This document shows, piece after piece, positions 3 to 43,170 of a DNA stretch of 45,156 bases. The stretch spans positions 1-45,156 of the forward strand of contig CAYIVQ010000001.1 of the NCBI GenBank assembly GCA_964366905.1, in the 5' to 3' direction. Every line of letters begins with the position of its first letter. The stretch's first letter is position 1. The notes beneath the pieces are model-generated. The model saw only the letters and a list, made by a program, of their open reading frames with translations. It searched no databases and was not told where the DNA came from. The position numbers and the translations under genes are program-made. Origin of the DNA: an uncultured Candidatus Saccharibacteria bacterium (lineage in GTDB: Bacteria > Patescibacteriota > Minisyncoccia > GWC2-36-17 > WO2-46-25).

Positions 3-602
3 GGCAAAATCGTCAAAGAAGAAATCAATCCGATGAAAGTGAAGCCGGAATTGATGACGGAAAAAGCGTCAAAAGATATGCGCGAAAAACATGTTCGCGA
101 ATTCGCTGACGCGCTTTCCGATTATTTCTTGAATGTGTCCGAGATTCACCTTAAAGACAAAATGGACGAATTAGTCATAAAAAATTTAACGGGAGAGATG
201 TCTCTTGAAGAATTAAAAAAGATGGCGGCGCTTCCGATGCGAGATGGAGGACTTGGATTTGGAGAGGGAAGGACAGACGAATTGGTTGCGCGCTTGGAAA
301 TGATTATTTTCGAAAGCGAAATTCTAAAACAGGTAGATGATGAGAAAGCCCGTTTCCTGCCTTTAAATAAAGAAGTCGGCGAACTAAGAAGATATGTGTT
401 GTCCGATTACGGAAAGCCGCTGACTTTTTTACGGATTAAACGATTGGAAGAAGCGATAGGAAGCTTGATTCGGGGCGCCATAGACGGCGAAGCGTTTTCA
501 AAAATAGTCGCTCTACCGGAAATTTCCGGCGGAGTCGGGTTTCCCGCTTCCGACGCGTTCCGATTTTTATTTAAATTGAAAATGGTGATGAAGCTGCGTT
601 AA
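3..602 (+). CDS. hypothetical protein, 5' end probably beyond the window edge
   Basis: Frame is open from nt 3 to the stop at 600-602. First in-window ATG is at 33. Two internal copies of an ALPxxxGG[LV]GF motif. No family recognised. Confidence 0.5.
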   Translation, partial: GKIVKEEINPMKVKPELMTEKASKDMREKHVREFADALSDYFLNVSEIHLKDKMDELVIKNLTGEMSLEELKKMAALPMRDGGLGFGEGRTDELVARLEMIIFESEILKQVDDEKARFLPLNKEVGELRRYVLSDYGKPLTFLRIKRLEEAIGSLIRGAIDGEAFSKIVALPEISGGVGFPASDAFRFLFKLKMVMKLR

Positions 603-636
603 CAACTTAACGGCTTACAACTAACAACTTATAACT

Positions 637-768
637 CTTTGAATTACGAAATAGCCATTTTTGTGTCTTTCTGAGGGAGTCAGCGACCGAAGAATCTCTG
701 AAAATCAAGTAAAATACTAGATTCTTCGCAAGCTCAGAATGACAAACTACGCATTTCGTAATTCAAAG
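637..768. mobile_element. 132-bp MITE-like element, copy A
   Basis: Perfect 16-bp terminal inverted repeats CTTTGAATTACGAAAT / ATTTCGTAATTCAAAG. Flanked by direct TATAACT (630-636 and 769-775). Internal 10-bp stem CGAAGAATCT/AGATTCTTCG. Identical to copy B at 5829-5960. Confidence 0.8.
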
Positions 769-5828: not shown

Positions 5829-5960
5829 CTTTGAATTACGAAATAGCCATTTTTGTGTCTTTCTGAGGGAGTCAGCGACCGAAGAATCTCTGAAAATCAA
5901 GTAAAATACTAGATTCTTCGCAAGCTCAGAATGACAAACTACGCATTTCGTAATTCAAAG
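5829..5960. mobile_element. 132-bp MITE-like element, copy B
   Basis: Identical to copy A. Flanked by direct TATAATC (5822-5828 and 5961-5967). Fills most of the recG / GGDEF divergent intergenic region. Confidence 0.8.
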
Positions 5961-33461: not shown

Positions 33462-35597
33462 ATGGAAAACCACGAGTCATTTTTTTATGTCATTATTCTG
33501 ACGGTCAGCTTTCTATTATTTATCTCTTCGCTGGCTGCCGTTTTTATTAAACGATTATACCTGCCGTACACGGTGGTTTTAGTCATAGTCGGAATAATTT
33601 TAAGCGTATTTTCCAGATTTGAATTGTTTGATTTTCTAAATGTTCTACAACTCTCTCCTGATCTTGTATTTTACCTGTTCCTGCCAATGCTTGTGTTTGA
33701 AGGAGCGTATAATATACGCTTTTTAGAGCTCAAATCATCATTAAAAACGGTTTCCGTCATGTCGATAGTAAGTTTGTTGATATCGGCATTCTTCATAGGC
33801 GCCGTATTATTTTATCTTTTTTCATATTTTGGGATCGCTGTTCCATTTATTACACTTTTGCTTTTCGGATCGTTGATTTCCGCGACTGACCCTATAGCCG
33901 CTCTTGCCATATTTCGCGAAATCGGCGTAGCGAAGCGCCTGCGCCTTCTGCTTGACGGAGAGAGTTTGTTTAACGACGGTACCGCTTTGGTTTTATTTCA
34001 AGTTGTTATGAGCGTAGCGCTTGCCGGCACGTTTTCAACAGGGATATTGGGCACTGCTTTCGTTAAGTTTTGGATTTTAGTCATAGGCGGGGCGGCGCTT
34101 GGCGCGATAATGGGCTGGATTTTTTCAAAAATCATTGAGCGGGTTCACAATCTTGCCACTGTTGAAATCACGCTGACTCTTATTCTGGCCCACACAGCTT
34201 TTATCTTCGCTGAAAAATTCTTCGGAGTTTCCGGCGTAATCGCCGCTCTGTCCGCCGGACTTATGGTGGGTAATTTCGGACGTTATAAAATTTCTCCGTC
34301 AGTTCGCGATTTTATGGAGCATTTTTGGTCATACGCCGCTTTTCTTGCTAATTCGCTTATATTCCTTCTGATAGGCCTTTCTCTGCGCGGGGTATCGCTG
34401 TTTGAATACTGGCTACCTGTATTAATCACCCTTATCGTGGTAATGATTGCCAGATTTGTTTCAGTTTTCGGCGTTGTTCCGTTTACCAATAAATTATTCA
34501 AAAGAGAAGGAAAAATCCCGGCTTCCTGGCAATTCCTGCTCTCATGGGGAGGATTGCGCGGGGCATTGCCTCTTGCCATAGTATTATTGCTGCCAGCTGA
34601 TTTTGAACACAAAAATCTGCTTTTAGTACTCACTTTAAGTACGGTATTTTTCACTTTGCTTATCCAGGCCACTACCATTAAAAAATTTATCAAGCATTTC
34701 AAGCTGGATATCTTTTCATCCGAAGAAGAGCTCGCGCGCGAAGAAGTGTTTCTTATGATGGACAAAAGAATCAAACGCCAGCTTGAAAATATGGCAGGAG
34801 ACAACCGCATTCCGAAAGAAGTTTATGAAAAGCTGGACAAAATGTACTCCGACCTTTACGCAGAATCTAAAAACCGGCTGGACAAACTCGTCAAGAAAAA
34901 AGGCGAATTTTCAAATTACGAAGAAATGCTCGTTTTATTGCGCAAACAAGCGCTGAATCTTGAAAGACGCGCTTATTTAAAACTTTTTGACCAGCATGAA
35001 TTAAGCGAACGCATATTCGCTTCGCTTGACGCGAAAATAGAACGGCAAATAGACCGCATTGATCGCAAAATGCCCCAAATTTTAGAGAAGAAAATTTCTT
35101 TTTCGCACATCAAAAAAATCAAAGATTATAGTTATTGGCTTCTGCAATCAATACAGCATCCATTGGCAAAAAAATTAAGCAATCGTTTGAAACTTTCCGA
35201 AACCATACATGATTATATTCTATACAGGACAAGAAAATTCGGTTCGGAAGAAGTATTGAGAGAATTGGCCGAGCTTCACGAAGACGCCAATGATACGGAA
35301 CATCAAAAAGCGCTTCAAATTATTATGGCGCAATACAAAAAATGGCGGCAGGAAAATACTGAACGACTGGGAAATATCAGGCAAGCCGACCCTAAATTAG
35401 TCGCCGCGCTAGAATACACTCTCGCGAACTTAAGTTCGCTTAACACAGAAATAGAAATTTTGGAGGATATGCATAAAAAAGGCATAGTCCCGGAAAACAT
35501 ATTTTCTGATGTTTATGAATACTACCAGCGCCTCTACGCGCAAAAACAAAATTTACTTCTCCAGTCTAAATACAGAATGAAAAAAGACAGCATCTAA
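33462..35597 (+). CDS. CPA1-family Na+(K+)/H+ antiporter with long cytoplasmic C-terminal domain
   Basis: About 12 TM. SATDPIA, ESLFNDGTALVLF, GGLRGALPLA. ~300-aa charged helical tail. Confidence 0.85.
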   Translation: MENHESFFYVIILTVSFLLFISSLAAVFIKRLYLPYTVVLVIVGIILSVFSRFELFDFLNVLQLSPDLVFYLFLPMLVFEGAYNIRFLELKSSLKTVSVMSIVSLLISAFFIGAVLFYLFSYFGIAVPFITLLLFGSLISATDPIAALAIFREIGVAKRLRLLLDGESLFNDGTALVLFQVVMSVALAGTFSTGILGTAFVKFWILVIGGAALGAIMGWIFSKIIERVHNLATVEITLTLILAHTAFIFAEKFFGVSGVIAALSAGLMVGNFGRYKISPSVRDFMEHFWSYAAFLANSLIFLLIGLSLRGVSLFEYWLPVLITLIVVMIARFVSVFGVVPFTNKLFKREGKIPASWQFLLSWGGLRGALPLAIVLLLPADFEHKNLLLVLTLSTVFFTLLIQATTIKKFIKHFKLDIFSSEEELAREEVFLMMDKRIKRQLENMAGDNRIPKEVYEKLDKMYSDLYAESKNRLDKLVKKKGEFSNYEEMLVLLRKQALNLERRAYLKLFDQHELSERIFASLDAKIERQIDRIDRKMPQILEKKISFSHIKKIKDYSYWLLQSIQHPLAKKLSNRLKLSETIHDYILYRTRKFGSEEVLRELAELHEDANDTEHQKALQIIMAQYKKWRQENTERLGNIRQADPKLVAALEYTLANLSSLNTEIEILEDMHKKGIVPENIFSDVYEYYQRLYAQKQNLLLQSKYRMKKDSI

Positions 35598-36601
35598 GCT
35601 TTGATTATAAATTTACTACCGAGGTAAAAATCATATCCGCTCATCGGTTTCTTACCTTCCGGCTGGACTGTTTCCAAAATCAGGCAATCTTTAGCAGTAT
35701 TTAGCGCTAATTTTTTGTCGCTGGTCAAGAAAAAACTCATAGGCGGCAATTTATTTCCACACTCTGAAATTCTTGCTTTTAATATTTTTAATATTTTCTT
35801 TTTTGATTTGTGATTCTTGATTTGTGATTCATAATTCATGTATGCCCCAGGCCATGGATTAAACGCTCTTATCATCCGTTCTATATATTCCGCATCCATA
35901 TCCGGCTTGATTTCACCGTCTTCTTTCTGAAATATTTTAGTCAATGTGGCTTTTGAATCGTTCTGCTCTTTTGGTTGGATTTTGCCGGCAAACCAAAGCG
36001 ACAAAACCTCAAGAAGCAAATCGGCGCCAACTTCAGCCATTTTCCGCATCAGAGTAATCGCGGTTTCGTCCAAAGCAATTGGAAACGCTTTTTGCGCCAA
36101 TATCGGTCCATGGTCCAATTCCTCGTCCACAACCATAATCGTCGGACCGGTTTCTTTATGGCCTTCCAAAATCGCAGTCTGAACAGGGGATGCGCCGCGC
36201 AAAAGCGGCAAAAGAGAGCCATGAACATTTAATATGCCGAATGGCGGAATATCTAATATCTCTTGCGGAATAATTTTCCCATAAGCGGCCACGATAATTA
36301 TATCGGGTTTTTCTTCCTTGATTTTAGCTATGACGCCAGCATCTTTTAATTTATCGGGTTGAAAAATTTTGATACCGCCCTTGATTCGTGATTCGTGATT
36401 CATGATTCTTTGTTTAACCGGCGGGGAAGTGAGAATTTGTTTCCTGCCTGTCGGCTTGTCTGGTTGTGTTATAACTAAATCAGGTTTGTATATTTCTGAT
36501 TGAATAAGTCTATCCAGAATATCAGCCGCAAGTTCGGTAGTGCCCATAAATATTATACGATGTTTATTTATCATATTCTTAATTCTTGATTCATAATTCA
36601 T
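35594..36601 (-). CDS. fmt: methionyl-tRNA formyltransferase
   Basis: IIFMGT, VAAYGKIIP, NVHGSLLPLLRGASPVQ, PWPGAY. The true start may be the downstream MINKH. Confidence 0.9.
   Translation of the reverse strand: MNYESRIKNMINKHRIIFMGTTELAADILDRLIQSEIYKPDLVITQPDKPTGRKQILTSPPVKQRIMNHESRIKGGIKIFQPDKLKDAGVIAKIKEEKPDIIIVAAYGKIIPQEILDIPPFGILNVHGSLLPLLRGASPVQTAILEGHKETGPTIMVVDEELDHGPILAQKAFPIALDETAITLMRKMAEVGADLLLEVLSLWFAGKIQPKEQNDSKATLTKIFQKEDGEIKPDMDAEYIERMIRAFNPWPGAYMNYESQIKNHKSKKKILKILKARISECGNKLPPMSFFLTSDKKLALNTAKDCLILETVQPEGKKPMSGYDFYLGSKFIIKA
35804..35838 (-). repeat. period-7 repeat motif H1 inside fmt
   Basis: TGATTTG TGATTCT TGATTTG TGATTCA TAATTCA on the + strand. Translated as MNYESQIKNHKS. 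Confidence 0.8.
36382..36409 (-). repeat. period-7 repeat motif H2 inside fmt
   Basis: TGATTCG TGATTCG TGATTCA TGATTCT on the + strand. Translated as RIMNHESRI. Confidence 0.85.
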
Positions 36602-36608
36602 GATTCGT
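36574..36608 (-). repeat. period-7 repeat motif H3 spanning the def stop / fmt start
   Basis: TATTCTT AATTCTT GATTCAT AATTCAT GATTCGT on the + strand. Encodes the fmt MNYESRIKN and the def ...ITNHEL*. Confidence 0.8.
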
Positions 36609-37073
36609 TATGCTTTCCGCCTTATCTTTAAATAAAATCCCATTCAAATGGTCTATTTCGTGCTGGAATAGTTGCGCGACAAGACCATCCGCTTTCATTT
36701 TGAATTTTCTGCCGTTTTGATTGTATGCTTCAATCTTTAATGATTCCGCGCGCTTGATTTTGCCATACAAGCCCAGCACTGAAAGACATCCTTCGTCCAT
36801 CAGTTTAGCTTTCTCTGAAATTTTTGTTATTACCGGATTGATAAAAACAACTTGATTTAATCCCAAAGCGGAAGACACGACAAATATCCTTAAATTCCTG
36901 CCGACTTGAGGCGCCGCTATGCCAATCCCGTTTTTCGCGATTGCCAGCGTATCTTGCATATCCTCGATAAGATTTTGGATCTCCGTATTTAAAATATCGG
37001 CTACCTCTTCAGATCTTGCCCTTAAAATGGGGTTTTTCACTTCTGATTCGATTACTATGGTAAGTATTGACAT
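36591..37073 (-). CDS. def: peptide deformylase
   Basis: GIGIAAPQVG, EGCLS, HEIDHLNG. Confidence 0.93.
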   Translation of the reverse strand: MSILTIVIESEVKNPILRARSEEVADILNTEIQNLIEDMQDTLAIAKNGIGIAAPQVGRNLRIFVVSSALGLNQVVFINPVITKISEKAKLMDEGCLSVLGLYGKIKRAESLKIEAYNQNGRKFKMKADGLVAQLFQHEIDHLNGILFKDKAESITNHEL

Positions 37074-39679: not shown

Positions 39680-40426
39680 ATGAACAGATATAAAATATTT
39701 GATATTCCGATTGATAATGTCAGTATGGTCGAAGCGCTGGAAACTGCGAAAAATATATTAGCAAAAGGGGAGCAGCGCAAAATTTTCACTATAAATCCGG
39801 AGATTTTGCTTTTAGGAAGGAAAGACCAAAATTATAGAAAAATTCTACAATCGGTTGATTTGGCTTTGCCTGACGGGATCGGTCTTGTGTGGTTGGGACG
39901 AATTTTTGGTATACCGTTTAAAGAGCGTGTTACTGGAACAGATTTTATGGAAAAATTGGCGGGAATGGCGGAGCAAGAAGATAAATCAATTTTTCTTTTA
40001 GGCGGAGAAAACGGCGCGTCAGAGAAAACGACAAAAACTTTAAAAAAAAAGTTTCCGAACTTAAAAATCGCCGGTTTTTTGGAATACCAAAATCAATGGC
40101 AAAACTATGAGCAAATTTTCCGAGCCGATATTTTATTTGTCGCGCTTGGCGCGCCAAAACAAGAAATATGGATATACGATAATCTGCCAAAACTGCCAAA
40201 CATAAAAATCGCCGTTGGGATAGGGGGGGCTTTTGACTTTATTTCCGGCAAAATTCCGCGCGCCCCTAAACTTTTGCGTGAAATTGGGTTAGAATGGATG
40301 TGGAGATTAATAATGGAACCGAAGAAGAGATGGAAGAGAGCGTTAAACGCGGTGATTATATTTCCGATTCATTTTATATCCTACGCTAAACACGCTAAAT
40401 TCGAAGCACGAAATCCGAAATCCTAA
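39680..40426 (+). CDS. WecB/TagA/CpsF-family glycosyltransferase
   Basis: NPEILLLG, LALPDGIGLVW, FLLGG, VALGAPKQEIW, GVGGAFDF-like GIGGAFDF, GLEWMWRL. Confidence 0.85.
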   Translation: MNRYKIFDIPIDNVSMVEALETAKNILAKGEQRKIFTINPEILLLGRKDQNYRKILQSVDLALPDGIGLVWLGRIFGIPFKERVTGTDFMEKLAGMAEQEDKSIFLLGGENGASEKTTKTLKKKFPNLKIAGFLEYQNQWQNYEQIFRADILFVALGAPKQEIWIYDNLPKLPNIKIAVGIGGAFDFISGKIPRAPKLLREIGLEWMWRLIMEPKKRWKRALNAVIIFPIHFISYAKHAKFEARNPKS

Positions 40427-40503
40427 ACAGATCACAATAACCAAAATTAAAAATTCTAAACGTTTTGAATGTTGAGTGTTAGGATTTAGAATTTCGAATT
40501 TTT
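40409..40503. repeat. inverted period-7 motifs bracketing the intergenic region
   Basis: CGAAATC CGAAATC CTAAAC at the 3' end of the CDS (encoding ARNPKS*) and GGATTTA GAATTTC GAATTTT just before the next ATG. Confidence 0.55.
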
Positions 40504-43170
40504 ATGAAACAAACTTTACTACCATTAATACTAATTGCGGTTTTATTTCCATTATTTACGCAAGCAGGAACATACTCTGATTCCGATGTTCCTCTGATTT
40601 TGCCGCGGTCAGTTTGGGAAAATACCGCCGATATGGTTAAACTGCTTGACTGGCTCCCGGAAGATAAAAATGGGACTTCAACTGCCGATGACAATCCGAA
40701 CAGCAATGACGCCATTCCGGATTACGCACCGATTGAAAGAATTGTAATCCACGACACCGGCTGTTCGCCAAAAAATAGCACCTGTAATAATGATAATGTC
40801 GATGAAAAGGCGATCATACAGAGCATCTACCGCAATCATGCGAAAACTCGCGGATGGGGCGATATCGGCTATCATTACATAATCGACCGCAAAGGAAATA
40901 TTTATGAGGCGCGGTTCGGCGGCAATGGCGTTCGCGGAGCGCATATTTACGACAGCAAAAACTGCCGCAATTTCAATGTAGGCACAATCGGCATCACAGT
41001 GCTTGGAAACTACGACTATTCACAGGCGCCGGAGCCCGCTTTTGTCGCGCTCGCTCAATTAACCGGTTGGCTTTCTGCCGCCAATGGAATTGATGCCGGA
41101 GCGACCGCGAAAACTTCTGTCGTTTGGGGGAATCCAAAAGTTAACGGCAATGGGAAATGCGACCTGAACTACGGCAGTTTTTCCTCGTCATTTACCGGAC
41201 CGGTTGTCTTAGGGCACAACGAAATTGAGCTGGCAAATTCCGATCCCGGCAAAAATTTTGACATGAACCGTCTGCGTGCGGAAGCAAAAAAATGGCAAGA
41301 TAAATATCAGTCTTATCTTTATCAAGAAAAAGGCAATAGCGCGGTAATGGAAATTAAAGGCGGGACAATGAAAAAAATTGCCGAATCGCCATCCGCGCTC
41401 GAAGCAGGTATTCAGCCAAAAATTATAAGCATCAACAGTTCTCAACTGTTTTTATTCCCTGAAGAAAATACCGTTAAACTTCCTGAAGGCAGTTTGGTAA
41501 AATCACGAAATAGACCGGAAATTTTCTTGATTGAAAACGGCAAAAGACGGCATATCGTCTCCGCGGCTCTATTCAATAAATTCGGCTTTATGCTTTCACA
41601 AGTCAAGGTATTATCCGACCGCGAATTGATGGGATATTCCGCCGGCGAATCATTGACTTATCCGGACGACACTCTGCTTGGCGTTAAATCAAACGGGAAA
41701 ACTTATTTGATCAAGAACGGAGGAAAACGGCATATCATATCGCAAAAAGCATTTAGACAAAACGGATTCAAAGAGAAAAACATTACTTGGGTCCAGCAAG
41801 AAGAAATTGATTCTTTGCAGGACAACGGAATCGTCGGTTTGCCGGAAGGAACTCTGGTGTCTTTAAGTAACAGCGCCAAAGCTCCAAATTACATAATAAT
41901 GGATGGTGGCAGGAAGTTAATCCCTTCATGGGAAATGTTCAATCTCTGGAAACTCAAGCGCAATAAAATATCGCTGATAGCCAAAAAAGATTTTGAAATG
42001 TATCCGGATAAAGGCGTTCTTTCATATCCCAACGGCACATTAATAACACAATCCGGCAAACCGGAAATGTATCTTGTGCATGCCGGAATAAAATATTGGG
42101 TATCAAACTATGAGACATTTAAAAAGCTGGGGTTGAACGCGGCAAAAACGGTTAAATTAAGCGCGGGAGAATTGAATAATTATCCGCGCGGGAAAGAAAT
42201 CACCACGGGGGATGATTGGCAAAAAATATTAAACCCCGCGGCTTTCGCAAAAACGCAATACGTTTTAGCAGTTGCTCCTGATAACAAAACTGCCGTAGCG
42301 CAAACGCAATCAACCTCAACTACCGATTTAATTATTAGAGTAGGACTATTTGAAGTCGGCGAAAAAGAAAATGTTTCCATAACCGCGGATAAAGACTTCA
42401 CTGTTTCCTCCGCGAAAATCGCAACTAAAAATCATAAAGCCGGAGAAACGGCGGAAATCAATTGGAATGAATCCGGCGATGCTAAACTTATATCAGATGC
42501 CGCGATTTTTACCATAAAAAGCCATGAGGCATGGAATTGGAATAAATCGGTGAATTTTAACAGTTATCGCGGATCGCTGGAGCTTGCGCGTTCGCCAAAA
42601 ACAGGCAAAATTTGGCTAATCAATCAGCTCCCACTTGAACAATATTTGCGAGGAATAGGAGAGGCGCTTAACTCCGACCCAGCAGAATATCAAAAAGCGT
42701 TTGTCATCGCCTCAAGAAGCTACGCGATGTTCCATCTGCAAAATGGCGGAAAATACGGTAAGGAAGAGATATTTCATCTGAATAATTCTTCTTCCGACCA
42801 AGTATATAAAGGCTACGCGTGGGAAAATTACGCGCCGCTTCTACCAAAAGCGGTTGAAGCAACAACCGGGGAAGTAATGAAATACAATAACAAAATCGCT
42901 AGGTCTGTTTACTCTTCAGATTCAGGCGGAATAACGAAAAACGCTTGTTCTTATTTCGGCAAAGAATTCTGCACTCCGGACTACGGATATTTAGCCGGAG
43001 GAGTCAAAGATCCTGAAGGAACAATCCGCCGAGACGCGGCGTCAATTAAGGCAAGCCACGGCGTTGGCATGAGCGCCACCGGCGCCCGTCGTCTTGCTCA
43101 ACTTGGGAAAAATTATCAGGAAGTATTGAAATACTATTATAAAGATATAACGATAGAAAAGATTTATTGA
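40504..43170 (+). CDS. secreted multidomain peptidoglycan hydrolase (Amidase_2/PGRP + four ~60-aa repeats + SpoIID/LytB domain)
   Basis: Signal peptide. IVIHDTG...GWGDIGYHYIIDRKGNIYEARFGG...TIGITVLGNY. Repeats P[ED]G[ST]L[VI]x7-10[YF]LIxNGxxRHI. C-terminal LEQYLRGIGEA...SSSDQVYKGY...SVYSSDSGG. Confidence 0.8.
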   Translation: MKQTLLPLILIAVLFPLFTQAGTYSDSDVPLILPRSVWENTADMVKLLDWLPEDKNGTSTADDNPNSNDAIPDYAPIERIVIHDTGCSPKNSTCNNDNVDEKAIIQSIYRNHAKTRGWGDIGYHYIIDRKGNIYEARFGGNGVRGAHIYDSKNCRNFNVGTIGITVLGNYDYSQAPEPAFVALAQLTGWLSAANGIDAGATAKTSVVWGNPKVNGNGKCDLNYGSFSSSFTGPVVLGHNEIELANSDPGKNFDMNRLRAEAKKWQDKYQSYLYQEKGNSAVMEIKGGTMKKIAESPSALEAGIQPKIISINSSQLFLFPEENTVKLPEGSLVKSRNRPEIFLIENGKRRHIVSAALFNKFGFMLSQVKVLSDRELMGYSAGESLTYPDDTLLGVKSNGKTYLIKNGGKRHIISQKAFRQNGFKEKNITWVQQEEIDSLQDNGIVGLPEGTLVSLSNSAKAPNYIIMDGGRKLIPSWEMFNLWKLKRNKISLIAKKDFEMYPDKGVLSYPNGTLITQSGKPEMYLVHAGIKYWVSNYETFKKLGLNAAKTVKLSAGELNNYPRGKEITTGDDWQKILNPAAFAKTQYVLAVAPDNKTAVAQTQSTSTTDLIIRVGLFEVGEKENVSITADKDFTVSSAKIATKNHKAGETAEINWNESGDAKLISDAAIFTIKSHEAWNWNKSVNFNSYRGSLELARSPKTGKIWLINQLPLEQYLRGIGEALNSDPAEYQKAFVIASRSYAMFHLQNGGKYGKEEIFHLNNSSSDQVYKGYAWENYAPLLPKAVEATTGEVMKYNNKIARSVYSSDSGGITKNACSYFGKEFCTPDYGYLAGGVKDPEGTIRRDAASIKASHGVGMSATGARRLAQLGKNYQEVLKYYYKDITIEKIY

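What the first reader, a model, noticed from the sequence alone, without database searches (positions are those of the whole stretch)
35804..36608. Three copies of a period-7 repeat motif are embedded in frame in fmt, one of them forming the def stop / fmt start overlap
On the coding strand the motifs are as follows:

- H3: CATGAATTATGAATCAAGAATTAAGAAT (36574-36608)
- H2: CATGAATCACGAATCACGAATCAAG (36382-36409)
- H1: CATGAATTATGAATCACAAATCAAGAATCACAAATCA (35804-35838)

Each consists of 4-5 tandem heptamers (GAATCAN). Three heptamers make 21 nt, so they translate as the recurring peptides MNYESRIKN, MNHESRIK and MNYESQIKNHKS. Compared with typical Fmt sequences, these sit at the N-terminus, in the loop after PVK, and just after PWPGAY, so they look like insertions.

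Heptamer tracts are classic substrates for slipped-strand mispairing, and a change of one unit would frameshift an essential gene. The motif also resembles the MITE terminus (GAATTACGAAAT) and the CGAAATC repeats at 40409-40429. This hints at one shared recognition sequence.
Basis: partly seen in the sequence, partly recalled or inferred. Interest (0 to 1): 0.6.

Follow-up and report, generated by a model that had tools for sequence, protein, structure and literature searches.

The report
Heptamer repeat arrays translated inside fmt
The three 7-base repeat tracts in this ultra-small groundwater bacterium's essential fmt gene are stray single copies of a repeat family scattered across its genome; they are read through as harmless loops, and related genomes carry their own 7-base repeats at the same spots in the same essential genes.

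Summary

They are not specific to fmt. The 864-kb genome (Patescibacteria, Azambacteria-like) holds 68 such arrays.
- Forty of them form 20 convergent inverted pairs that fill intergenic spacers.
- The other 28 are single arrays; at least nine lie in frame inside eight housekeeping genes (fmt, IleRS, LeuRS, ValRS, LigA, MnmA, TatD, a glycosyltransferase).

Two of the genome's three Avd-like four-helix-bundle genes (PF05635) sit between GAATYAN arms. Relatives' PF05635 genes have other heptamer arms, and protein similarity follows the arm sequence.

Orthologue comparisons:
- H2 and H3 are lineage-specific.
- H1 is shared by a subclade, with 2-5 units.
- Other genera carry different heptamers at the same fmt, LigA and MnmA sites.
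- The LigA array sits in a patch with its own phylogeny.

Seven strain-level variants have identical unit numbers, so I found no sign of phase variation, though read-level data were not available.

Best reading: these are translated solo arms of a dispersed, horizontally spreading heptamer-array element (like rRNA intervening sequences, IVS, or the Xanthomonas arrays), kept only in tolerant loops. How they insert is unknown. I rate it a new variant of a known kind.

The parts
35803..35837 (-). H1: five units of GAATYAN in frame in fmt (MNYESQIKNHKS), at the start of the C-terminal domain after PWPGAY
   Evidence: It is 9 aa longer than E. coli Fmt at this site. Related Fmt genes have 2-5 units here. 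G003 and G008 have GAAACRY arrays and G005 has AAAATCA.
36381..36408 (-). H2: four units of GAATCAN in frame in fmt (RIMNHESRIK), after PPVK
   Evidence: It is 6 aa longer than all 19 relatives and PDB 4iqf/1fmt. The P0008 clade has two units here. The closest clade, P0002-P0007, has none.
36572..36606 (-). H3: four good units plus one degenerate unit across the def/fmt junction. It contains the def TGA (36591-36593), the upstream fmt ATG (36599-36601) and the second ATG (36572-36574).
   Evidence: It is 21 nt longer than the homologous junction of P0002. In G005, def and fmt are fused in frame without an array.
35594..36601 (-). fmt (methionyl-tRNA formyltransferase), 335 aa from the upstream ATG or 326 aa from ATG 36574
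   Evidence: PF00551+PF02911; PDB 4iqf 1e-52, 1fmt 7e-50
36591..37073 (-). def (peptide deformylase). Its last residues (ITNHEL) and its stop codon are encoded by H3.
   Evidence: (PF01327 immediately upstream of fmt in relatives)
40403..40502 (.). Convergent pair of GAAATCC-type heptamer arrays (same class, different unit). It ends 1 nt before the ATG at 40504-40506.
602..636 (+). Solo (CAACTNA)n heptamer array abutting a 124-bp MITE (641-764) whose inverted ends read TTTGAATTACGAAAT
   Evidence: CAACTNA-type arms flank PF05635 genes in G008 and G010.

Best explanation
H1, H2 and H3 are solo arms of a dispersed heptamer-array repeat family with unit GAATYAN. Positions 1-4 and 6 are fixed, positions 5 and 7 are free, and four units is the usual length.

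The full form of the element is a convergent pair of arrays, (GAATYAN)n - spacer - (NTRATTC)n.
- In two copies in this genome the pair encloses a small Avd-like four-helix-bundle gene (PF05635, the '23S rRNA intervening-sequence protein' family).
- In 18 copies it encloses only a short spacer. At least two of these still carry the end of the gene cassette, so they look like deletion derivatives.

The family spreads horizontally and is patchy among related genomes.

Inside genes, almost only single arrays in the sense orientation survive. The antisense strand of intact units gives a TRA stop codon in every frame within three units. Survivors must also keep the frame, avoid stop codons at the free positions, and fall in a tolerant surface loop. 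There they are translated as hydrophilic E-(S/L)-x-I-x-N-x stretches that partly replace the original loop.

Once present, the arrays change by whole units, and the changes that survive are mostly multiples of 21 nt. They can also pass between genomes on short recombination patches.

Shown: the family, its anatomy, its link to PF05635, its patchiness, its insertion status, the sense-strand rule, the site recurrence and the LigA mosaic.

Inferred: that the PF05635 protein recognises the arrays, one unit per subunit; that solo arms come from the same process as the pairs; and that they are neutral passengers. The step that puts an array into an essential gene in a single move is unknown.
For: Family and anatomy
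- There are 68 strict arrays, of which 44 have exactly 4 units. They form 20 convergent pairs and no divergent pairs. The conservation pattern is G A A T y A n.
- Period 7 dominates all tandem repeats in the genome.
- The pairs fold into long imperfect hairpins, dG -18 to -22 kcal/mol, z -2.9 to -6.1.
- In 14 of 20 pairs the outer end of an arm lies 3-10 nt from a start codon.

Link to PF05635
- C29:1566-1877 and C12:1416-1730 lie between GAATYAN arms that encode their termini. The third copy, on C60, lies between TTTTCAA arrays.
- In G019 the only two GAATYAN matches in the genome bracket a PF05635 gene.
- The four GAATYAN-armed proteins are 64-72% identical to each other. They are 20-47% identical to copies with other heptamer arms, apart from G025_C21 (53-67%), whose arms I could not type. 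Their host genomes belong to different families.
- Many other PF05635 genes have their own heptamer arms.
- Spacers at C20:2984-3025 and on C9 retain the cassette end GGATTTTGATTTYTTGATTAAACC.

Patchiness
- GAATYAN 20-mer counts are 66 (G000), 54 (G005), 20 (G011) and 11 (G009). Sister genomes of the same genera have 0.

Insertions in genes
- fmt H2 is 6 aa longer and H1 9 aa longer than solved structures. The other arrays add 5 aa in MnmA (50), 11 in TatD (51), 5 in LeuRS (77) and 4 in ValRS (78).
- Every array inside a conserved enzyme is in the sense orientation. The one antisense case, in a hypothetical protein on C18, has a mutated unit that removes the obligatory stop.
- Period-7 arrays are about 26-fold depleted in coding DNA.

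Dynamics
- The H1, H2 and H3 sites carry 0-5 units across relatives, with three 21-nt differences.
- Other genera carry other heptamers at the same sites in fmt, LigA and MnmA. In G003 and G008 the fmt array matches those genomes' own GAAACRN family, which is absent from G000.
- LigA is a mosaic. Array-bearing genomes group together in the 55 flanking columns (support 82/90), but group with their congeners in the other 601 columns (support 90-100).
Against: - The two arms of a pair do not covary at the free positions (observed 0.47, null 0.51). Perfect pairing is therefore not maintained, and the arms are not copied from one another.
- No target-site duplication is visible, and no act of movement was observed.
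- PF05635 genes are also present in relatives without GAATYAN arrays. The link is to a sub-lineage of the protein family, shown by four proteins only.
- A full hairpin insertion would be lethal in an essential gene, so solo arms need a one-step origin that this model does not supply.
- Net length gains (4-11 aa) are smaller than the arrays (9-12 aa). The events are replacements rather than clean insertions.
- Three GAATYAN arrays in one 1-kb gene is far more than a random scatter of about 14 in-gene arrays would give, and I cannot explain the clustering.
- Co-conversion of flanks was seen only in LigA, not in MnmA or Fmt.
- Translation of the tracts is inferred from frame and stop avoidance. 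It has not been observed.
Confidence: 0.6

Rival explanations
1. Home-grown simple-sequence repeats. Each array arose on the spot by polymerase slippage of a chance GAAT-like seed, and heptamers are favoured by the replication machinery. On this view there is no mobile element or trans-acting factor.
For: - Heptamer repeats are known to be over-represented in bacteria, with a proposed link to polymerase slippage (PMC4692102).
- Arrays differ between lineages by whole units.
- At one site, changes in the unit sequence affect all units together (LigA: GAATCAC, AAATCAA, AAGTCAA).
- The native H2 site in P0002 contains GAAGCGAAT, a possible seed.
Against: - About 68 loci share one unit with the same fixed and free positions. 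Sister genomes of the same genera have none.
- The same unit forms the arms of PF05635 cassettes in three genomes from different families.
- Only the convergent arrangement of pairs occurs.
- Remnants of the cassette end lie inside gene-less pairs.
Confidence: 0.15
2. A contingency (phase-variation) switch. Changes in unit number turn fmt and def on or off, or switch between two Fmt N-termini.
For: - Tandem heptamers can slip, and a one-unit change shifts the frame.
- H3 holds both the def stop codon and an fmt start codon.
Against: - Seven strain-level variants from independent assemblies have identical unit numbers.
- The units are imperfect.
- The hosts are single-copy housekeeping genes (aminoacyl-tRNA synthetases, LigA, MnmA, TatD), not surface genes.
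- Three of the four measurable differences between lineages are multiples of 21 nt.
Confidence: 0.04
3. Ancestral or functional Fmt sequence. The peptides are conserved parts of this clade's Fmt, for example for tRNA or ribosome contacts, and their repeat nature is incidental.
For: H1 is present, as a clean heptamer array, in Fmt proteins only 61-71% identical to this one.
Against: - H2 and H3 are absent from the closest clade, P0002-P0007.
- Different genomes encode unrelated peptides at the same site: NYESQIKNH, LETRNMKHE, IKIKNQSAK.
- Unit number varies from 2 to 5.
- The same DNA unit is found in non-coding spacers and in unrelated genes.
Confidence: 0.05
4. Homing-like spread. A genome-encoded factor (PF05635 or another protein) cuts or marks empty sites or arrays. 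Repair from an array-bearing allele taken up from neighbouring cells then copies the array, with some flanking sequence, into the gene.
For: - The LigA array sits in a patch of about 60-80 aa. The phylogeny of that patch groups the four array-bearing genomes against their congeners.
- The same sites are occupied in several genera.
- H2 in G000 and in the P0008 clade shares the left junction CAAAGAATYAYGAAT, although the clade between them lacks the array.
Against: - Only one mosaic was found, from 55 columns with moderate support (82/90).
- MnmA arrays have unrelated units with unchanged flanks, which fits independent gains in a tolerant loop better.
- No nuclease domain is known in PF05635.
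- Ordinary recombination between co-existing populations could give the same pattern.
Confidence: 0.16

Closest known systems
Heptameric repeat arrays of Xanthomonas, (GGGAATC)n / (GGGANTN)n, and of Nostoc (Rehm et al. 2015, PMC4692102); cyanobacterial STRR (short tandemly repeated repetitive) heptamers
   Same: - Period 7, with positions 1-4 and 6 conserved and 5 and 7 free.
[quoted passage not shown]
- 70-75 convergent pairs in Xanthomonas.
- Intergenic bias, with 7-11% (Xanthomonas) or about a third (Nostoc) of arrays inside genes.
- Length varies between related species.
- A shared GAATC core.
   Different: - This family is AT-rich, has no G runs and cannot form G-quadruplexes. The four-unit preference therefore cannot be explained by quadruplex formation.
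- It is tied here to PF05635 cassettes.
- In-frame copies sit in many essential genes, and the same sites recur across genera.
Intervening sequences (IVS) of 23S rRNA that carry an S23p / four-helix-bundle ORF (PF05635)
   Same: A small PF05635 gene lies between inverted arms that can form a long stem. Gene-less hairpin versions are much more numerous.
   Different: The copies here lie between or inside protein-coding genes, not in rRNA. The arms are tandem heptamers with periodic mismatches. Removal at the RNA level, as RNase III does for an IVS, cannot rescue an mRNA, so the copies inside genes must be translated.
Rickettsia palindromic elements (RPE)
   Same: Repeated DNA inserted in frame in unrelated housekeeping genes and apparently read through as an extra surface segment.
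   Different: RPEs are palindromic units of about 100-150 bp with a fixed sequence. The tracts here are 21-35-nt tandem arrays, and they are single arms, not palindromes.
REP / REPIN elements and their RAYT transposases
   Same: Many short inverted-repeat doublets in intergenic DNA, plus a few copies that flank a single small gene thought to act on them.
   Different: The enclosed gene is a four-helix bundle, not a Y1 transposase. The arms are degenerate tandem heptamers. No movement has been shown.
Geobacter metallireducens four-heptanucleotide elements (PMC2700814)
   Same: [quoted passage not shown]
   Different: The unit is GC-rich (GGGACCG / GGACCGG). The elements were annotated as putative regulatory RNA. 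No link to a cassette gene and no frame analysis was reported.

Membership tests
Heptameric repeat arrays in convergent pairs (Xanthomonas/Nostoc type, PMC4692102) | Tandem units of 7 nt, with some positions conserved and others free | tested here: met
   G271/284, A281, A276, T274, then T161/C97, A280, then any base; period 7 dominates.
Heptameric repeat arrays in convergent pairs (Xanthomonas/Nostoc type, PMC4692102) | Preference for four units | tested here: met
   44 of 68 arrays have 4 units
Heptameric repeat arrays in convergent pairs (Xanthomonas/Nostoc type, PMC4692102) | Frequent convergent plus/minus pairs; mostly intergenic | tested here: met
   20 convergent pairs and 0 divergent. 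About 26-fold depletion of period-7 arrays in coding DNA.
Heptameric repeat arrays in convergent pairs (Xanthomonas/Nostoc type, PMC4692102) | G-rich unit able to form a G-quadruplex | tested here: not met
   The unit GAATYAN has a single G
Contingency locus (phase-variable simple repeat) | Unit number varies among closely related strains | tested here: not met
   7 variants at 97-100% identity have identical tract lengths. A read-level test was not possible.
Contingency locus (phase-variable simple repeat) | Perfect repeats in surface or host-interaction genes | tested here: not met
   The units are heterogeneous. The hosts are fmt, aminoacyl-tRNA synthetases, LigA, MnmA and TatD.
IVS-type PF05635 cassette | PF05635 gene enclosed by inverted arms | tested here: met
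   C29 and C12 in G000, G019:C25 and G005:C7 have GAATYAN arms. Other copies have other heptamer arms.
IVS-type PF05635 cassette | Located in 23S rRNA and excised from the transcript | not tested
   The rRNA operon of G000 was not examined. The fmt tracts are single arms in an mRNA.
Rickettsia palindromic elements | In-frame insertion in unrelated conserved genes | tested here: met
Rickettsia palindromic elements | Palindromic unit of about 100-150 bp with a conserved sequence | tested here: not met
   Single arrays of 21-35 nt, with no second arm inside the genes
MITE | Terminal inverted repeats with a conserved interior and a target-site duplication | tested here: not met
   Spacers of 14-356 nt are mostly unrelated to one another. 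No duplication is seen at the outer ends.
REP/RAYT (REPIN) | Y1 (HUH) transposase gene flanked by the repeats | not tested
   The enclosed gene is PF05635. I ran no search for a Y1 transposase. PF13366, the other family linked to such arms by earlier notes, is absent from G000.

The most novel reading that the evidence does not exclude
Heptamer arrays are the cis sites of a family of small selfish elements whose Avd-like four-helix-bundle proteins (PF05635) each recognise their own heptamer. These elements copy arrays into tolerant loops of essential genes by a homing-like gene conversion between co-existing genomes. Once there, an array cannot be deleted imprecisely without killing the host. 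This would give the uncharacterised PF05635/IVS protein family a function. It would also explain why unrelated heptamer families occupy the same loops of fmt, LigA and MnmA in different genera.
Probability: 0.18. Interest if true: 0.85.

Novelty: new variant of a known kind. Interest (0 to 1): 0.6.

Why it matters
- It turns an odd feature of one gene into a genome-wide rule. In this reduced genome, period-7 arrays are the main repeat class, and 26 of 111 are carried in frame inside long ORFs, including fmt, three aminoacyl-tRNA synthetases, DNA ligase and MnmA.
- It shows that the four-unit preference and the fixed/free pattern reported for the G-rich Xanthomonas arrays also hold for an AT-rich unit that cannot form quadruplexes. 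That argues for a protein- or replication-based cause rather than a G4-based one.
- It gives testable handles on two unknowns: what the widespread PF05635 '23S rRNA intervening-sequence protein' does, and how short repeats enter essential genes without a lethal intermediate.
- It is a practical warning for annotation. These tracts create false starts, stops and overlaps (def/fmt) and inflate apparent protein divergence in Patescibacteria.

Tried and rejected
- **Read-level polymorphism.** I used seven strain-level protein variants instead.
- **Arm covariation at free positions.** Negative, so the arms are neither foldback copies nor selected for perfect pairing.
- **GxxExxY nuclease (PF13366)**, linked to such arms by earlier notes. 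It is absent from G000.
- **Target-site duplications.** None seen.
- **AlphaFold model of Fmt from 13 sequences.** Mean pLDDT 59, too poor to place the loops. H1 falls in a segment with pLDDT below 50. I used alignments to solved structures instead.
- **Co-conversion around arrays in Fmt and MnmA.** Not detectable. The Fmt C-terminal region is variable everywhere and the MnmA flanks are invariant.
- **DGR (diversity-generating retroelement) link.** G000 has one DGR-type reverse transcriptase with its own Avd-like ORF. The arrays' variable positions are not the adenines, and nothing connects the two.
- **Translational bypass or frameshift site.** Rejected, because the arrays are always in frame and stop-free, which would be unnecessary if the ribosome skipped them. 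GAATCAN is not a slippery X XXY YYZ heptamer.
- **GANTC methylation-site array.** Rejected, because the commoner GAATTAN units lack the site.
- **The GC-rich insert nested in the H1 array of P0016.** It does not match this window's 42-nt repeat family.
- **Literature.** Two full-text searches found no description of heptamer arms around PF05635 genes, nor of in-frame heptamer arrays in Patescibacteria.
Full report
**1. What is in the sequence**

fmt occupies window 35594-36601 on the minus strand, and def occupies 36591-37073. On the coding strand there are three tandem arrays of a 7-nt unit:
- H1, 35803-35837, five units.
- H2, 36381-36408, four units.
- H3, 36579-36606, four units plus a degenerate fifth.

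H3 contains the def stop codon (36591-36593) and the upstream fmt ATG (36599-36601). A second ATG at 36572-36574 gives MINKHRIIFMGT, which is where most orthologues begin.

All ten window matches to GAATCANGAATCA (up to 1 mismatch) are in fmt, against 0.5 expected. The recurrence of one peptide pattern follows from reading a 7-nt repeat in triplets.

**2. It is a genome-wide family**

The genome is 864 kb in 79 contigs with 41% GC. Names on related Fmt proteins point to an Azambacteria-like member of the Patescibacteria.

Period-7 arrays are by far its commonest tandem repeat: 111 arrays, against 18, 3, 3 and 0 for periods 6, 8, 9 and 10. The main unit is GAATYAN.

A strict scan finds 68 GAATYAN arrays.
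- Positions 1-4 and 6 are nearly invariant and positions 5 and 7 are free.
- 44 of the 68 have exactly four units.
- 40 form 20 convergent pairs, plus-strand array first, with spacers of 14-356 nt. No divergent pair exists.

The pairs fold into long imperfect hairpins. In 14 of 20 pairs, one arm ends 3-10 nt from the start codon of a neighbouring ORF, and I saw no target-site duplication. The two arms of a pair do not match each other at the free positions more than arms of different pairs do.

This anatomy matches what Rehm et al. described for (GGGANTN)n in Xanthomonas: the period, the fixed and free positions, the four-unit preference and the convergent pairs (PMC4692102). Here, however, the unit is AT-rich and cannot form G-quadruplexes.

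**3. Arrays inside genes**

Single GAATYAN arrays lie in frame inside IleRS, LeuRS, ValRS, LigA, MnmA, TatD and a glycosyltransferase. Others sit at the start of two pilin genes.

Counting every heptamer family, 26 of 111 arrays are internal to ORFs of at least 200 aa. LeuRS carries three arrays of three different units, and MnmA and IleRS carry two each. Several arrays in one gene is therefore not unique to fmt. Three arrays of the same unit in 1 kb is still far more than a random scatter would give.

ORFs of at least 120 aa cover 89% of the genome, so period-7 arrays are about 26-fold depleted per base in coding DNA.

Inside conserved enzymes the array is always on the sense strand. The reason is mechanical: the complement NTRATTC puts TAA or TGA in every frame within three units. 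The one antisense case, in a hypothetical protein on C18, has a mutated unit that removes the stop.

Against solved structures, each array coincides with a short length gain in a loop:
- Fmt H2, 6 aa longer; Fmt H1, 9 aa longer.
- MnmA, 5 aa longer.
- TatD, 11 aa longer.
- LeuRS, 5 aa longer.
- ValRS, 4 aa longer.

The gain is smaller than the array, so part of the native loop has been replaced.

**4. Link to a small gene**

G000 has three PF05635 genes (four-helix bundle, '23S rRNA intervening-sequence protein', with a weak bAvd match).
- Two of them, C29:1566-1877 and C12:1416-1730, lie between GAATYAN arms that also encode their N- and C-termini.
- The third, on C60, lies between TTTTCAA/TTGAAAA arrays.

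In relatives, many PF05635 genes are also bracketed by inverted heptamer arrays, and each has its own unit. In G019, the only two GAATYAN matches in the genome bracket such a gene.

The four GAATYAN-armed proteins, from three genomes in different families, are 64-72% identical to each other. They are 20-47% identical to copies with other heptamer arms. The exception is G025_C21 (53-67%), whose arms I could not type.

Two gene-less pairs keep the cassette's inner end, GGATTTTGATTTYTTGATTAAACC, in their spacer. They look like deletion derivatives.

I noticed the C29 and C12 genes before reading the earlier scan notes, which report the same packaging elsewhere. PF13366, the other gene family those notes mention, is absent here.

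**5. Distribution and history**

Exact GAATYAN 20-mers number 66 in G000, 54 in G005, 20 in G011 and 11 in G009, but 0 in sister genomes of the same genera. The reversed control pattern gives 0-3.

For Fmt:
- H2 is absent from all 19 genome relatives and from the closest protein clade, P0002-P0007 (69-71% identity). That clade keeps the outgroup-like VLAEANG. The more distant P0008 clade has a two-unit version with the same left junction.
- H3 is a 21-nt expansion relative to P0002. In G005, def and fmt are fused in frame with no array.
- H1 is present with 5, 5, 4, 5 and about 2 units in G000, P0002, P0005, P0008 and P0010. In P0016 the array carries a nested GC-rich insert.

Three of the length differences are exactly 21 nt.

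In other genera the same H1 site holds (GAAACAY)4 in G003, (GAAACGY)4 in G008 and (AAAATCA)n in G005. Their congeners have nothing there. G003 and G008 have a dispersed GAAACRN family (15 and 9 matches) that G000 lacks.

The same pattern holds in other genes.
- LigA site: (GAATCAC)4 in G000, (AAATCAA)4 in G005, (AAGTCAA)4 in G003 and G008.
- MnmA site: GAATCAN, GAATTTC+AAAATTC, GCAAAGY and AAAGTTA arrays in G000, G003, G005 and G011. AAAGTTA is also the arm unit of a PF05635 cassette in G011.

In LigA, the 55 alignment columns flanking the array group the four array-bearing genomes together (support 82/90). The other 601 columns recover the genera with support 90-100. G008 and G004 are 89% identical overall but 31% identical in the window over the array. 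That indicates a patch with its own history. MnmA and Fmt show no such signal.

**6. Slippage and phase variation**

Seven protein variants at 97-100% identity, from independent assemblies, have identical tract lengths. The only change is one G/A substitution inside H1.

With heterogeneous units and essential host genes, a switch function is unlikely. Unit gain and loss clearly happens over longer times, and it is filtered to keep the frame.

**7. Interpretation**

The fmt tracts are translated solo arms of a dispersed, horizontally spreading heptamer-array element. The complete form of that element is an IVS-like hairpin cassette around an Avd-like gene.

Selection explains the strand, the frame, the lack of stops and the loop positions. 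It probably also explains much of the recurrence at the same sites.

Not explained:
- How a single array enters an essential gene in one step.
- Why the arrays partly overwrite the loop.
- Why fmt has three arrays of one family.
- Whether the PF05635 protein acts on the arrays at all.

The MITE terminus shares only one unit.

**8. Novelty**

Heptamer arrays in convergent pairs, some of them inside genes, are in print for Xanthomonas, Nostoc and Geobacter. In-frame repeat insertions are known from Rickettsia.

I found the following undescribed in two full-text searches:
- The AT-rich family in Patescibacteria.
- Its load on essential genes.
- Occupation of the same loops by different heptamer families across genera.
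- The LigA mosaic.
- The tie to PF05635 lineages.

I rate it a new variant of a known kind.

Noticed in passing
G000 contig C6:28356-29688 (outside the window): A 332-aa reverse transcriptase with the DGR (diversity-generating retroelement) hallmark IGNLTSQ and YGDD motifs. A divergently oriented 149-aa Avd-like ORF lies beside it, next to two large ORFs of 927 and 776 aa. This is probably a diversity-generating retroelement. I found no link to the heptamer arrays.
   Followed up: partly
L005 (G005 def-fmt locus); protein P0020: In G005, and in an NCBI protein of 483 aa, def and fmt are fused into one reading frame (...LFKDKAEKSRKIIFMGT). In G000 the H3 array supplies the stop and start codons that separate them.
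   Followed up: partly
L046 (P0016 fmt), H1 site: A GC-rich insert of about 33 nt (CCCGAAGGAGAGCAAGCTCCCTACGGGGCAGGT) is nested in frame inside the heptamer array. It does not match this window's 42-nt repeat family.
   Followed up: partly
G000 C5:27357-27397, C5:29022-29044, C3:3480-3517, C43:1391-1421: Other heptamer families also lie in frame in the same enzymes: (GAAAGTC)4 and (TTTTCAA)3 in LeuRS, (AAATCTC)4 in IleRS, and (ACTCGCT)4 in MnmA and two other ORFs.
   Followed up: partly
Proteins P0125 and P0126 (strain variants of this fmt): Two assemblies encode an Fmt that departs from the others after ...ARISEC and ends 6 residues later (EINCRL). This suggests a rearrangement or insertion in the C-terminal domain in some strains.
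   Followed up: no
G000, 20 convergent pairs (for example C9:12176-12238, C14:4646-4741): In 14 of 20 pairs, a start codon lies 3-10 nt beyond an arm, with no Shine-Dalgarno-like sequence between. The arm occupies the place where a ribosome-binding site would be expected.
   Followed up: partly
window 641-764 and 5833-5956: Two identical copies of a 124-bp MITE with the ends TTTGAATTACGAAAT / ATTTCGTAATTCAAA. The first copy directly follows a solo (CAACTNA)n heptamer array at 602-636.
   Followed up: partly
G000 in-gene GAATYAN arrays: Five of the eight housekeeping genes that carry GAATYAN arrays act on tRNA (Fmt, IleRS, LeuRS, ValRS, MnmA). This may only reflect the gene content and gene lengths of a reduced genome.
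   Followed up: no
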